Positions 933 to 1,092 of a DNA stretch of 64,000 bases are shown here, piece after piece; positions within the stretch are counted from its first letter, which is position 1, and each line of letters opens with the position of its first letter. The position numbers and the translations under genes were made by a program. Under the pieces are notes generated by a model. It was given only the letters and a program-made list of their open reading frames with translations, searched no databases and was not told where the DNA came from. Source of the stretch: a virus; IMG/VR virus record IMGVR_UViG_3300045988_103014, positions 13,780 through 77,779 of that record. One strand, 5' to 3'.

Positions 933-945
933 ATATATATAAAGT

Positions 946-1076
946 AAAGACAGAAACAGCAATAGTTATGTTAAAGCAAGCCGATTGTCGTGGGTTCGAG
1001 CCCCACCTTCCGGGTCTGTGATAGATAGGAAGTAGCTCAGCTGGGAGAGCCTCAGCCAATATAACAAATCTGTCTT
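946..1076 (+). ncRNA. tRNA-half-like segments in permuted order (T-arm/3' acceptor segment 989-1013, then 5' acceptor+D-arm segment 1026-1057), closed by 9-bp terminal inverted repeat
   Basis: gtgggttcgagccccac T-arm followed by ggaagtagctcagctgggagagc D-arm; caagacaga (945-953) pairs with tctgtcttg (1069-1077); sits directly after promoter copy 1. Confidence 0.3.
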
Positions 1077-1092
1077 GAACAAAATTTCTTTT

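What the first reader, a model, noticed from the sequence alone, without database searches (positions are those of the whole stretch)
945..1077. tRNA-half-like segments in permuted (3'-then-5') order, closed by a terminal 9-bp inverted repeat
Directly after promoter copy 1 there is:
- a T-arm plus 3' acceptor-like segment (GTGGG-TTCGAGC-CCCAC-CTTCCGG);
- a 14-nt linker;
- a 5' acceptor plus complete D-arm (GGAAG-TA-GCTCAGCTGGGAGAGC) and the start of an anticodon stem.
The outer ends CAAGACAGA and TCTGTCTTG are exact reverse complements. This is the layout of circularly permuted tRNA genes known from a few algae and archaea, where leader and trailer pair to form the processing motif. Here the anticodon region is not cleanly reconstructible, so it may instead be a decayed tRNA or a tRNA-like regulatory RNA. 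A weaker similar arrangement (a T-arm followed by the acceptor-like hairpin CTCGCCGaattGCGGCGAG) occurs at 5494-5534, and an isolated T-arm at 6080-6105.
Basis: seen in the sequence. Interest (0 to 1): 0.5.

Follow-up and report, generated by a model that had tools for sequence, protein, structure and literature searches.

The report
Phage Y-RNA-like tRNA mimic
The "scrambled tRNA" at 947-1077 is most likely a small non-coding RNA shaped like a tRNA with its ends moved, the probable partner of a Ro60-like RNA-binding protein encoded by the same large phage, and it belongs to an unannotated RNA family found in many phages.

Summary
The T-arm, closed acceptor-like hairpin and D-arm are present in 3'-then-5' order at 990-1050. 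The closing inverted repeat is 8 bp (947-954/1069-1076), not 9.

It is not a permuted tRNA gene and not debris. No anticodon loop can be reconstructed. Close orthologues cap the "acceptor" stem with UUCG, and one has only 3 bp.

It has the architecture of YrlA-type Y RNAs. Rfam YrlA matches end to end but below threshold (28.7 bits; gathering score 69). A covariance model found 34 full-length relatives in large phages: 94.8% of cells paired, 24 of 27 pairs with compensatory changes, and a covarying Levitt pair.

The terminal "handle" is AAGAC-N3/N3-GUCUUG plus single-stranded ACAGCAAU. This replaces the GNCGAA motif of known Y RNAs.

The window encodes a DUF2828 protein (26166-27707) whose predicted fold matches Ro60/TROVE. 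Its homologues lie directly beside handle RNAs in many contigs, and in the cultured phages LeBron, Tsamsa, a Felixounavirus and Listeria AG20.

The same handle also flanks or interrupts otherwise complete tRNA-like genes.

Verdict: a new variant of a known kind. Binding and function are inferred, not shown.

The parts
904..932 (+). Promoter-like site (TTGATT, 17 nt, TG-n-TATAAT). One of four identical copies that drive successive small cassettes.
   Evidence: Other copies at 1093-1121, 1496-1524 and 1954-1982. A similar site at about 26063-26092 precedes the Ro60-like gene.
947..1077 (+). The whole Y-RNA-like (YrlA-architecture) tRNA mimic.
   Evidence: Rfam YrlA 1-114/114, 28.7 bits. Family model R1 108.5 bits (self; the window copy is in the seed). 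Orthologues in L160 and L161.
947..954 (+). Handle helix P1, 5' strand (AAGACAGA). Pairs with 1069-1076.
   Evidence: 6 of 8 pairs covary in the family. The orthologue has AAGACAAT/ATTGTCTT.
956..963 (+). Conserved single-stranded motif ACAGCAAU next to P1. Candidate protein-recognition site.
   Evidence: Invariant in alignments A1 and A4. Conserved as (A)CAGCAA(U/A) in LeBron, Tsamsa and REP11.
980..984 (+). Anticodon-stem-like helix, 3' strand (GCCGA). Pairs with 1052-1056 (UCAGC) with one A-C mismatch. No anticodon loop follows.
   Evidence: L160 has a perfect CCTGC/GCAGG. The three top pairs covary in the family.
985..989 (+). Variable-loop equivalent (UUGUC). C989 corresponds to position 48, the Levitt partner of G1040.
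   Evidence: 15:48 is A:U in 18, G:C in 13 and A:C in 2 of 33 sequences.
990..1006 (+). T-arm (GUGGG UUCGAGC CCCAC).
   Evidence: 100% of cells paired, 4 of 5 pairs covary.
1007..1032 (+). Closed acceptor-like hairpin (CUUCCGG, 12-nt loop, UAGGAAG). No CCA.
   Evidence: Its length varies in orthologues (3 or 7 bp with a UUCG cap). All 7 pairs covary in the family.
1033..1050 (+). U8-A9 equivalent and D-arm (GCUC AGCUGGGA GAGC).
   Evidence: A14 and GG are invariant. GCUC/GAGC becomes GUUC/GAAC in orthologues.
1052..1056 (+). Anticodon-stem-like helix, 5' strand (UCAGC).
1069..1077 (+). Handle helix P1, 3' strand (UCUGUCUU) plus the invariant unpaired G.
26166..27707 (+). Gene for a divergent Ro60-like protein (DUF2828 + DUF7788; helical N-terminal region plus vWA). 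Proposed protein partner.
   Evidence: Pfam. phrog_850 'RNA-binding protein'. The AF2 model's top 9 PDB fold matches are all Ro60/TROVE. Homologues lie next to handle RNAs.
6026..6154 (+). Second tRNA-mimic copy of the family.
   Evidence: R1 38.9 bits, E=9e-6. P1 is TGAGATAC/GTATCTCG with ACAGCAAT.
23434..23549 (+). tRNA-like gene in normal order. The handle sits as a 45-nt hairpin inside the 5' strand of the anticodon stem ('type B').
   Evidence: Rfam tRNA 49.7 bits over 117 nt. Sequence. In-silico removal of the insert gives ARAGORN 116.3.
25059..25191 (+). Second type B: tRNA-Leu(UAA)-like with a 48-nt handle variant (ACUGCAAU), about 1 kb upstream of the Ro60-like gene.
   Evidence: 119.1 after removal. 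It duplicates the ordinary tRNA-Leu(UAA) at 20060-20143.
10161..10276 (+). Handle (AAGGCACAT ACAGCAAA ... AGTGCCTTG) enclosing a complete ordinary tRNA-Ile(GAU).
   Evidence: R1 22.9 bits.
7745..7827 (+). Short handle-only RNA with no tRNA body. Similar ones at 8478-8539, 8964-9035 and 22249-22385.

Best explanation
The region 947-1077 encodes a small structured RNA transcribed from its own sigma-70-type promoter. It folds like a tRNA whose chain is circularly permuted. The 5' and 3' ends pair in an 8-bp helix (P1), followed by a conserved single-stranded ACAGCAAU. P1 leads into a 5-bp anticodon-stem-like helix that has no anticodon loop. The T-arm and D-arm form the tRNA elbow, and the acceptor stem is closed by a loop. 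This is the architecture of YrlA-type bacterial and phage Y RNAs.

Proposed mechanism, inferred by analogy with Ro60/Y RNA particles:
- The P1 + ACAGCAAU 'handle' is bound by the phage's divergent Ro60-like protein (26166-27707).
- The tRNA-like elbow serves as the effector module. It would tether a tRNA-binding or RNA-processing enzyme, forming a particle that acts in RNA (probably tRNA) quality control or repair during infection.

Shown here:
- the fold and its covariation;
- membership of a large phage RNA family;
- the Ro60-like fold of the protein;
- tight gene-RNA linkage across very different phages.

Inferred: physical binding, the tethered factor and the biological role.
For: Architecture:
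- Rfam YrlA matches end to end. Relatives also match at 29-42 bits.
- Family model R1 finds 34 full-length copies at 69.8 bits or more.
- 94.8% of cells are paired, against 68% in shuffles and 34-43% in slid controls. 24 of 27 pairs show compensatory changes.
- The Levitt pair 15:48 covaries between G:C and A:U in 31 of 33 sequences. U8, A14, G18G19 and the T-loop are conserved.

It is not a tRNA:
- The best in-silico reconstruction scores 105.9, below all 34 window tRNAs.
- Orthologues downstream of the same sigma-factor gene keep the T-arm, D-arm, AC stem and P1 through compensatory changes. Their acceptor stem is 3 bp or 7 bp capped by UUCG.

The partner:
- The window's DUF2828/DUF7788 protein model (pLDDT 75) has as its top 9 PDB fold matches only Ro60/TROVE proteins over the full length, E 2e-7 to 2.5e-4.
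- Homologues (about 36% identity) lie 50-400 nt from handle RNAs on the same strand in L081, L092, L106, L112, L119, L120, L166, L171 and L172.
- Handle RNAs lie within 3 kb upstream of the gene in L142, L143, L145, L146, L149 and L153.

Cultured phages:
- LeBron: RNA 107 nt after gp53, annotated 'Ro-like RNA binding protein'.
- Tsamsa, Felixounavirus REP11 and Listeria AG20 carry the same (A)CAGCAA handle near the gene.

Literature:
- Phage Ro60 with adjacent Y-like RNAs is established (PMC4201824, PMC12135203).
- YrlA has a closed acceptor-like stem of variable length and no anticodon loop (bioRxiv 10.1101/312249).
Against: - The Rfam score is far below the gathering score (28.7 vs 69). The same model scores a tandem-tRNA junction at 27.2 bits, so the Rfam hit alone proves nothing.
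- The GNCGAA Ro60-binding motif of known YrlA RNAs is absent.
- This particular copy lies 25 kb from the Ro60-like gene, not within about 4 kb.
- Pfam TROVE does not hit the protein, and a sequence profile finds no Ro60 in the PDB. The homology rests on a medium-confidence predicted fold (TM about 0.5).
- The gene also sits beside tRNA arrays in general, so part of the linkage could reflect co-location with tRNA genes rather than a specific partnership.
- There are no expression or binding data.
- The covariation counts come from an alignment fitted to the model.
Confidence: 0.7

Rival explanations
1. A genuine circularly permuted tRNA gene. Leader and trailer pair, are cut and the ends ligated. 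The linker is then removed by RNase P and 3' processing to give a working tRNA.
For: - The 3'-then-5' order and closing stem are real.
- Other family members do reconstruct to high-scoring tRNAs (118-128) once the handle is removed. The break always falls at nt 28-30 of the anticodon stem.
- 16 of 34 encode N-CCA right after a 7-bp acceptor stem.
- L098 even keeps G-1/C73 of tRNA-His.
- The phage encodes an RNA ligase and end-healing enzymes.
Against: For this element:
- No 7-nt anticodon loop or U33 is obtainable, and the best score is 105.9.
- The acceptor stem is imperfect and lacks CCA. Orthologues have 3-bp or UUCG-capped stems.
- There is no bulge-helix-bulge.

For the family:
- Distances from the conserved helix to the putative junctions vary, from 8 to 17 nt on one side (sequences).
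- The anticodon-bearing copies duplicate ordinary tRNAs in the same arrays.
- Anticodon positions 34-35 vary among near-identical orthologues.
Confidence: 0.03
2. Rearrangement debris: the 3' half of one decayed tRNA followed by the 5' half of the next. A tandem-tRNA junction or decayed duplicate with no function.
For: - Tandem tRNA junctions do mimic this layout. They score 27.2 bits with Rfam YrlA and 23.2 bits with R1.
- The window is a dense tRNA array.
Against: - No flanking tRNA halves are present.
- The element has a dedicated promoter.
- Its position after the sigma-factor gene is conserved in relatives at 73-78% protein identity, with compensatory substitutions in P1, the D stem, the AC stem and the acceptor stem.
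- There are 33 distinct relatives with strong covariation.
- R1 separates true copies (70 bits or more) from tRNA junctions (about 23 bits).
Confidence: 0.02
3. The handle is a general processing, stability or chaperone signal of the phage's tRNA operons, independent of the Ro60-like protein. It might be cut or bound by a host or phage RNase. The tRNA-like body would act by itself, for example as a decoy or competitor for a tRNA-elbow-binding host factor.
For: - The same handle encloses a complete ordinary tRNA-Ile (10161-10276).
- It occurs as short handle-only hairpins between tRNAs and interrupts tRNA-like genes.
- The Ro60-like gene is generally next to tRNA arrays, so the linkage may be indirect.
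- The window copy is 25 kb from the gene.
Against: - In many loci handle RNAs sit within 50-400 nt of the Ro60-like gene on the same strand. This holds even where few or no ordinary tRNAs are nearby (L166, L119) and in LeBron (no tRNA features in the 9.4-kb stretch shown).
- A sequence-invariant single-stranded motif beside a helix of variable sequence is the design of known Ro60-binding sites (PMC4201824, PMC12135203).
- This rival is partly compatible with the main explanation, since the Ro-like protein could be the factor acting on precursors.
Confidence: 0.2

Closest known systems
YrlA-type Y RNAs (Rfam RF02553; Chen et al. 2014, PMC4201824; Wang et al. 2018, bioRxiv 10.1101/312249)
   Same: - T-arm lies 5' of the D-arm.
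- The acceptor-like stem is closed by a loop and varies in length.
- tRNA tertiary nucleotides and the Levitt pair are kept.
- There is no anticodon loop.
- The anticodon stem continues into a stem made by the RNA's 5' and 3' ends, with a short conserved motif in the 5' strand region.
- Several copies per genome, including shorter versions without the tRNA body (like YrlB).
- Encoded next to a Ro60-type gene, also in phages.
- Some members have a 7-bp stem plus CCA, like M. smegmatis YrlA, which is cut by RNase P.
   Different: - Scores 29-42 bits against the Rfam model (gathering score 69).
- The GNCGAA(N)G motif is replaced by ACAGCAA(U/A) beside an AAGAC/GUCUUG-type helix.
- The partner is the DUF2828/DUF7788 family, which Pfam TROVE does not recognise.
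- Copies are scattered through tRNA arrays, each with its own promoter. This copy is 25 kb from the gene.
- Some relatives keep a complete anticodon hairpin, or carry the handle as an insert in a normally ordered tRNA.
Phage Ro60 / Y-RNA-like particles (Thermus phage phiLo Ro60 with Yrl1 and Yrl2, PMC12135203; mycobacteriophage, CcrColossus and Bacillus phage G examples cited there and in PMC4201824)
   Same: - A phage-encoded Ro60-fold protein with two or more small RNAs encoded beside it.
- Each RNA has a 5'-3' stem next to a loop that carries a short conserved motif.
- The best fold matches of the window protein are the phiLo structures 9kop and 9l5y.
   Different: - The phiLo RNAs carry a CGAA motif and were not described as tRNA mimics.
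- The proteins share only about 14-15% identity in the structural alignment.
- No binding data exist for the family described here.
Circularly permuted tRNA genes of Cyanidioschyzon merolae, other algae and an archaeon
   Same: The 3' half (T-arm, 3' acceptor strand) precedes the 5' half (5' acceptor strand, D-arm). Leader and trailer pair.
   Different: - No bulge-helix-bulge motif.
- This copy has no reconstructible anticodon loop.
- The acceptor stem is not conserved as a 7-bp stem.
- The setting is bacterial-virus; no splicing endonuclease was seen among the 38 ORFs scanned.
Two-piece (circularly permuted) tmRNA genes
   Same: T-arm and 3' acceptor strand lie upstream of the 5' acceptor strand.
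   Different: - No tag reading frame, pseudoknots or CCA.
- ARAGORN reports no tmRNA.
- The element is only 131 nt.

Membership tests
YrlA Y RNA (RF02553) | T-arm 5' of D-arm, with a closed stem-loop in the acceptor position. | tested here: met
YrlA Y RNA (RF02553) | tRNA tertiary-interaction nucleotides conserved (U8, A14, G18G19, T-loop; Levitt pair 15:48 covarying). | tested here: met
   31 of 33 sequences have G:C or A:U. The window has G1040:C989.
YrlA Y RNA (RF02553) | Long stem formed by the 5' and 3' ends, continuous with an anticodon-like stem. No anticodon loop. | tested here: met
YrlA Y RNA (RF02553) | GNCGAAN0-1G motif in the 5' strand (the putative Ro60 contact). | tested here: not met
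   Read from the sequence. ACAGCAAU occupies that place. GCCGAU at 980-985 is the AC-stem strand and is not conserved in L160 or L161.
YrlA Y RNA (RF02553) | Reaches the Rfam gathering score. | tested here: not met
   28.7 vs 69 bits. Relatives score 29-42 bits.
YrlA Y RNA (RF02553) | Encoded within about 4 kb of a Ro60 orthologue on the same strand. | tested here: inconclusive
   This copy is on the same strand but 25 kb away. Many relatives are 50 nt to 3 kb from the Ro60-like gene.
YrlA Y RNA (RF02553) | Bound by the Ro60/Rsr protein in vivo. | not testable with these tools
   Needs immunoprecipitation or EMSA.
Circularly permuted tRNA gene | Joining the halves gives a complete tRNA with a canonical 7-nt anticodon loop. 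| tested here: not met
   Best of all junctions is 105.9, below the window tRNA minimum of 107.2. No U33 is possible.
Circularly permuted tRNA gene | Leader and trailer form a bulge-helix-bulge splicing motif. | tested here: not met
   P1 is an uninterrupted 8-bp helix. The junction distances vary across the family (sequences).
Circularly permuted tRNA gene | Conserved 7-bp acceptor stem joined by a removable linker. | tested here: not met
   The window has 6 of 7 pairs with an A-G mismatch. L160 has 3 bp + UUCG and L161 has 7 bp + UUCG.
Circularly permuted tRNA gene | tRNA splicing endonuclease available. | tested here: inconclusive
   None among the 38 window ORFs scanned with Pfam. Not all ORFs were scanned, and the host is unknown.
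Two-piece tmRNA | Tag reading frame with resume codon, and an encoded or addable CCA on the acceptor piece. | tested here: not met
   ARAGORN finds no tmRNA. There is no room for an ORF in 131 nt.
Ro60/TROVE proteins (for the proposed partner, 26166-27707) | Helical (HEAT-repeat) domain followed by a vWA domain. | tested here: met
   The AF2 model has a helical N-terminal region and an alpha/beta C-terminal domain. Foldseek top 9 are all Ro60/TROVE, aligned over about 507-595 columns. Weak VWA_2 hit. The closed-ring geometry was not inspected directly.
Ro60/TROVE proteins (for the proposed partner, 26166-27707) | Recognised by the Pfam TROVE model or by sequence similarity to solved Ro60 structures. 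| tested here: not met
   Only DUF2828/DUF7788 hit. Neither phmmer nor the profile finds a Ro60 chain in the PDB.

The most novel reading that the evidence does not exclude
The handle marks a maturation pathway, not only a protein-binding site. On this reading, the family members that keep a perfect anticodon hairpin, a 7-bp acceptor stem and an encoded CCA would be real tRNA genes. They exist either permuted, or in normal order with the handle inserted at nt 29/30 of the anticodon stem. The handle would be removed, or the two pieces joined, with help from the Ro60-like protein and the phage's RNA ligase and end-healing enzymes. That would be the first protein-dependent interrupted and permuted tRNA genes in bacterial viruses. 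The window's 947-1077 copy would then be a derivative that lost decoding capacity.
Probability: 0.08. Interest if true: 0.9.

Novelty: new variant of a known kind. Interest (0 to 1): 0.6.

Why it matters
Ro60/Y RNA particles are conserved from bacteria to humans, but their bacterial and phage roles remain poorly understood.

- **Scale.** An abundant and so far uncharacterised phage protein family (DUF2828) matched 694 GenBank phage records by tblastn, plus thousands of metagenomic proteins. The records include Felix O1-like, A511-like, KVP40, Tsamsa and LeBron-type phages. This family appears to be a Ro60 relative with its own family of tRNA-shaped and handle-only partner RNAs, recognisable by an (A)CAGCAA motif. 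None of these RNAs is annotated in the records examined.
- **Tractability.** Several genetically tractable phage-host pairs are now available to ask what such particles do beside tRNA arrays and RNA-repair genes.
- **Evolution.** The family contains a graded series: an ordinary tRNA flanked by the handle; a tRNA with the handle inserted in the anticodon stem; a permuted tRNA with anticodon and CCA; and a closed mimic without anticodon. This series bears directly on the proposal that Y RNAs evolved from tRNAs. It suggests a route other than the dimeric-tRNA model.

Tried and rejected
- **GenBank phage DNA.** Nucleotide searches with the locus found nothing. An exact pattern for the window's own T-arm/acceptor/D-arm found nothing in IMG/VR.
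- **Sequence-level link to Ro60.** phmmer and a 14-sequence profile against PDB sequences gave only noise. Pfam TROVE gave no hit. Only the predicted fold made the link.
- **RNAalifold on four close orthologues**. It proposed pairing AAGAC with the variable loop UUGUC. That alternative involves only invariant bases and fails in L099, so it was rejected in favour of the covarying P1.
- **MFE folding of the single sequence**. It is unremarkable (z = -1.9) and misses the D-arm. It is not informative.
- **Genome-contig scan**. Five hits in Phycisphaerae, Pyrinomonadaceae, Ferrimonas, Ktedonobacteraceae and an unclassified bin have no tRNA features and no R1 match. They were treated as chance.
- **The bare 7-mer ACAGCAA** is not enriched in the window: 13 found against 10.8 expected. 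Only the motif-plus-stem combination is enriched.
- **Bulge-helix-bulge and small self-cleaving ribozyme motifs** were looked for by eye in the handle (hammerhead, twister, pistol, hairpin consensus recalled from memory). Nothing convincing was seen. This was not a formal test beyond the Rfam scans.
- **tmRNA** was considered and rejected.
- **attP or integration-site remnant** was considered and rejected, because such a site would not carry the 5' half after the 3' half.
- **Papers not held.** Burroughs & Aravind 2016 and Sim et al. 2020 could not be read. The supplementary tables of Chen et al. 2014 are not held. I therefore could not check whether any DUF2828-type phage RNA was already in their list of 22 phages.
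Full report
**1. What is in the sequence**

The window is an AT-rich piece of a large phage genome.
- Identical proteins occur on contigs of about 194 kb.
- The phage sigma factor is 56% identical to RpoD proteins of MAGs labelled Lachnospiraceae.
- The window carries 34 tRNA genes and a ROOL RNA.

Right after a sigma-factor gene that ends at 903 there is a promoter-like site, TTGATT-17-TATAAT, at 904-932. 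It recurs identically at 1093, 1496 and 1954.

- T-arm, 990-1006.
- CTTCCGG, 1007-1013.
- A 12-nt loop.
- TAGGAAG, 1026-1032.
- TA.
- A canonical D-arm, 1035-1050.
- A terminal inverted repeat.

The repeat is 8 bp (947-954/1069-1076), not 9.

**2. The first lead and its weakness**

A sensitive Rfam scan matched the Y RNA-like family YrlA over its whole length at 947-1079. The score was only 28.7 bits against a gathering score of 69. The same model scores the junction of two ordinary tandem tRNAs at 27.2 bits. That is a known false-positive class (PMC4201824). The Rfam hit was therefore only a lead.

**3. Relatives**

GenBank phages gave no nucleotide match. A relative of the sigma-factor locus in IMG/VR (L001) had a similar element that shared AAGAC-N4-ACAGCAAT. 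A pattern built on that motif plus the T-loop found 44 loci in large viral contigs.

Close orthologues of the window's own element were recovered downstream of sigma-factor genes at 73-78% identity (L160, L161/L162). Across these orthologues:

| Feature | Window | Orthologues |
|---|---|---|
| T-arm | GTGGG-TTCGAGC-CCCAC | identical |
| P1 | AAGACAGA/TCTGTCTT | AAGACAAT/ATTGTCTT |
| D stem | GCTC/GAGC | GTTC/GAAC |
| Anticodon-like stem | TCAGC/GCCGA | CCTGC/GCAGG |
| 'Acceptor' stem | CTTCCGG / 12-nt loop / TAGGAAG | CTC-TTCG-GAG, or 7 bp capped by TTCG |

No anticodon loop exists in any of them. A more distant relative (L165) has a short handle-only RNA at the same position.

**4. The family structure**

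A covariance model (R1) found 34 full-length copies at 69.8-112 bits, many of them not in the seed. Tandem-tRNA junctions score about 23 bits.

On the model-based alignment:
- 94.8% of cells form standard pairs. Shuffled partners gave 68.0 ± 1.0% (0 of 500 reached the observed value), and partners slid by 1-3 columns gave 34-43%.
- 24 of 27 pairs show changes on both sides, spread over all five helices.

Tertiary features:
- The Levitt pair 15:48 is A:U in 18, G:C in 13 and mismatched in 2 sequences.
- U8, A14 and the D-loop GG are invariant.

The caveat is that the alignment is fitted to the structure. The slid controls and the independent MAFFT/RNAalifold result point the same way.

**5. Not a tRNA gene**

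For every element I removed the handle in silico at all plausible junctions and scored the products with ARAGORN.
- The window element peaks at 105.9. That is below all 34 real tRNAs of the window (107.2-126.1, median 120.4).
- U33 cannot be obtained with any junction.
- Its orthologues' 3-bp and UUCG-capped stems rule out a usable acceptor end.

This is the YrlA design: a closed acceptor-like stem of variable length, no anticodon loop, and an anticodon stem that runs on into the terminal stem (bioRxiv 10.1101/312249; PMC4201824).

**6. The likely protein partner**

ORF 26166-27707 hits Pfam DUF2828 + DUF7788 and phrog_850 'RNA-binding protein'. Sequence methods do not connect it to Ro60.

An AlphaFold2 model (pLDDT 75) has Ro60/TROVE structures as all of its top nine PDB matches. 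They align over about 507-595 columns, with E values from 2e-7 to 2.5e-4:
- Thermus phage phiLo Ro60.
- D. radiodurans Rsr.
- Xenopus Ro60.
- Human Ro60.

**7. Linkage between the RNAs and the protein gene**

In loci found through the RNA pattern alone, a homologue of this protein (about 36% identity) lies on the same strand:
- 50-400 nt from the RNAs in L081, L092, L106, L112, L119 and L120;
- within about 1-2 kb in L095 and L118;
- about 6-7 kb away in L109 and L123.

The same holds in the MAG contigs L166, L171 and L172.

In loci found through the protein alone, R1 hits lie within 3 kb upstream of the gene in L142, L143, L145, L146, L149 and L153.

**8. Cultured phages**

tblastn finds the protein in 694 GenBank phage records. 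Annotations include 'Ro-like RNA binding protein' (mycobacteriophage LeBron), 'RNA-binding protein', 'vWFA protein' and 'DUF2828'. The gene typically abuts the tRNA array.

R1 finds unannotated family members there, all with the (A)CAGCAA motif:
- LeBron: 107 nt after gp53 (50.6 bits; Rfam YrlA 39.8).
- Tsamsa: 45.1 bits, plus a short handle RNA 90 nt before the gene.
- Felixounavirus REP11: 42.7 bits.
- Listeria AG20: short handle RNAs just before the gene.

Phage Ro60 proteins with adjacent Y-like RNAs are established biology (PMC4201824; PMC12135203).

**9. How it probably works**

*Shown:* the fold, the family, the Ro60-like fold of the protein, and the linkage.

*Inferred by analogy with Ro60/Y RNA particles:*
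- P1 plus ACAGCAAU is the protein-binding handle. It takes the place of the GNCGAA/CGAA motif of known Y RNAs.
- The tRNA elbow is the effector module, which would recruit a tRNA-recognising enzyme.

The neighbourhood fits a role in tRNA or RNA surveillance and repair, but that role is untested. The neighbouring genes are:
- a Thg1-like enzyme;
- a metallophosphoesterase;
- an RNase T-like exonuclease;
- an RNA ligase;
- a nucleotidyltransferase.

**10. Wider findings beyond the given coordinates**

The handle is modular. In the window it also:
- forms short handle-only RNAs (7745-7827, 8478-8539, 8964-9035, 22249-22385);
- encloses a complete tRNA-Ile (10161-10276);
- sits as a 45-48-nt hairpin inside the anticodon stem of two normally ordered tRNA-like genes (23434-23549; 25059-25191).

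Handle-plus-stem modules occur 5 times in the window against 0.5 expected.

Elsewhere, many permuted copies keep a perfect anticodon hairpin (Pro, Asn, Asp, Thr, His), a 7-bp acceptor stem and N-CCA. The permuted and inserted forms are exact circular permutations of each other, with the break at nt 28-30.

Two observations argue that even these are mimics rather than interrupted tRNA genes:
- They duplicate ordinary tRNAs in the same arrays.
- Near-identical orthologues differ at anticodon positions 34-35 (AGG, UGG, AUG, GAG) while G36-G37 stay fixed.

I cannot exclude processing into functional or two-piece tRNAs. I give that a probability of about 0.08.

**11. Verdict**

- The permuted-tRNA-gene reading is not supported for this element.
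- The best explanation is a YrlA-architecture Y-RNA-like tRNA mimic that belongs to a large, unannotated RNA family partnered with DUF2828-type Ro60 homologues.
- It is a new variant of a known kind.
- It is of moderate to high interest, because of its breadth in cultured phages and because the family shows what look like tRNA-to-Y-RNA intermediates.

Noticed in passing
window 2007-2608 (+): A full-length ROOL RNA (207 bits, gathering score 99). It is driven by the fourth copy of the same promoter cassette and sits inside the tRNA array.
   Followed up: partly
window 4024-4132 (+): Sub-threshold full-length match to drum RNA (36.6 bits, gathering score 43) between tRNA-Tyr and tRNA-Ala.
   Followed up: no
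window 23434-23549 and 25059-25191 (+): Two tRNA-like genes in normal order carry the handle hairpin (GTCTTG-att-AAGAC..ACAGCAAT, and a GGTTTTG-aca-AAAACC..ACTGCAAT variant) inside the 5' strand of the anticodon stem. After in-silico removal they score 116.3 (anticodon GAG on a Pro-like body) and 119.1 (Leu-UAA). The second duplicates the ordinary tRNA-Leu(UAA) at 20060-20143.
   Followed up: partly
window 10161-10276 (+): A handle (AAGGCACAT ACAGCAAA ... AGTGCCTTG) whose two strands enclose a complete ordinary tRNA-Ile(GAU). It looks like a leader-trailer stem.
   Followed up: partly
window 5388-5685 (+), especially 5494-5534: A 300-nt gap between two tRNA-Glu genes holds a good T-arm followed by a 7-bp hairpin (CTCGCCG-aattg-CGGCGAG), but no D-arm and no ACAGCAA handle. 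Neither R1 nor Rfam matches it. Unexplained.
   Followed up: partly
window 24704-25058 (+): An unusually G+C-rich non-coding stretch of about 350 nt lies between tRNA-Cys and the type B Leu-like gene. It has no Rfam match and may be another structured RNA.
   Followed up: no
window 30797-33268 (+): An 823-aa ORF hits major vault protein domains (MVP_shoulder E=5e-26, Vault_3 E=2e-7). It lies 3 kb from the Ro60-like (TROVE-fold + vWA) gene. Eukaryotic vaults combine MVP, a TROVE protein and small RNAs. No MVP homologue was seen beside the Ro60-like gene in the other loci.
   Followed up: partly
window 29042-39476 (+): A cluster of RNA end-healing and repair-type genes: Thg1-like, DUF5688, metallophosphoesterase, RNase T-like exonuclease, RNA ligase and a pol-beta-type nucleotidyltransferase. 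Two radical SAM proteins (12460-15313) sit inside the tRNA region.
   Followed up: partly
window 6335-6406 and 1853-1926 (+): Rfam calls a tRNA at 6335-6406 (39.1 bits) that ARAGORN misses. ARAGORN calls a tRNA-Ile with the unusual anticodon AAU at 1853-1926.
   Followed up: no
L169/L170, L082, L093, L102, and window 23434-23549: Orthologous Pro-like type B genes are nearly identical in the tRNA body but differ at anticodon positions 34-35 (AGG, UGG, AUG, GAG). G36 and G37 are fixed, which is the TrmD recognition dinucleotide.
   Followed up: partly
L168 3469-5418: In a 147-kb MAG contig the Ro60-like gene is split. Residues 1-123 are on one strand and 131-513 on the other, with the handle RNAs between them. 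This could be an inversion or a misassembly.
   Followed up: no
L181 5532-5658; L180 2234-2361 and 3843-3908; L184 6367-6496; L182 3662-3929: Unannotated family members lie next to the DUF2828 'RNA-binding protein' gene in cultured phages: LeBron, Tsamsa, Felixounavirus REP11 and Listeria AG20. AG20 also has an RtcB gene, annotated 'tRNA splicing ligase', 1.2 kb downstream of the gene's end.
   Followed up: partly
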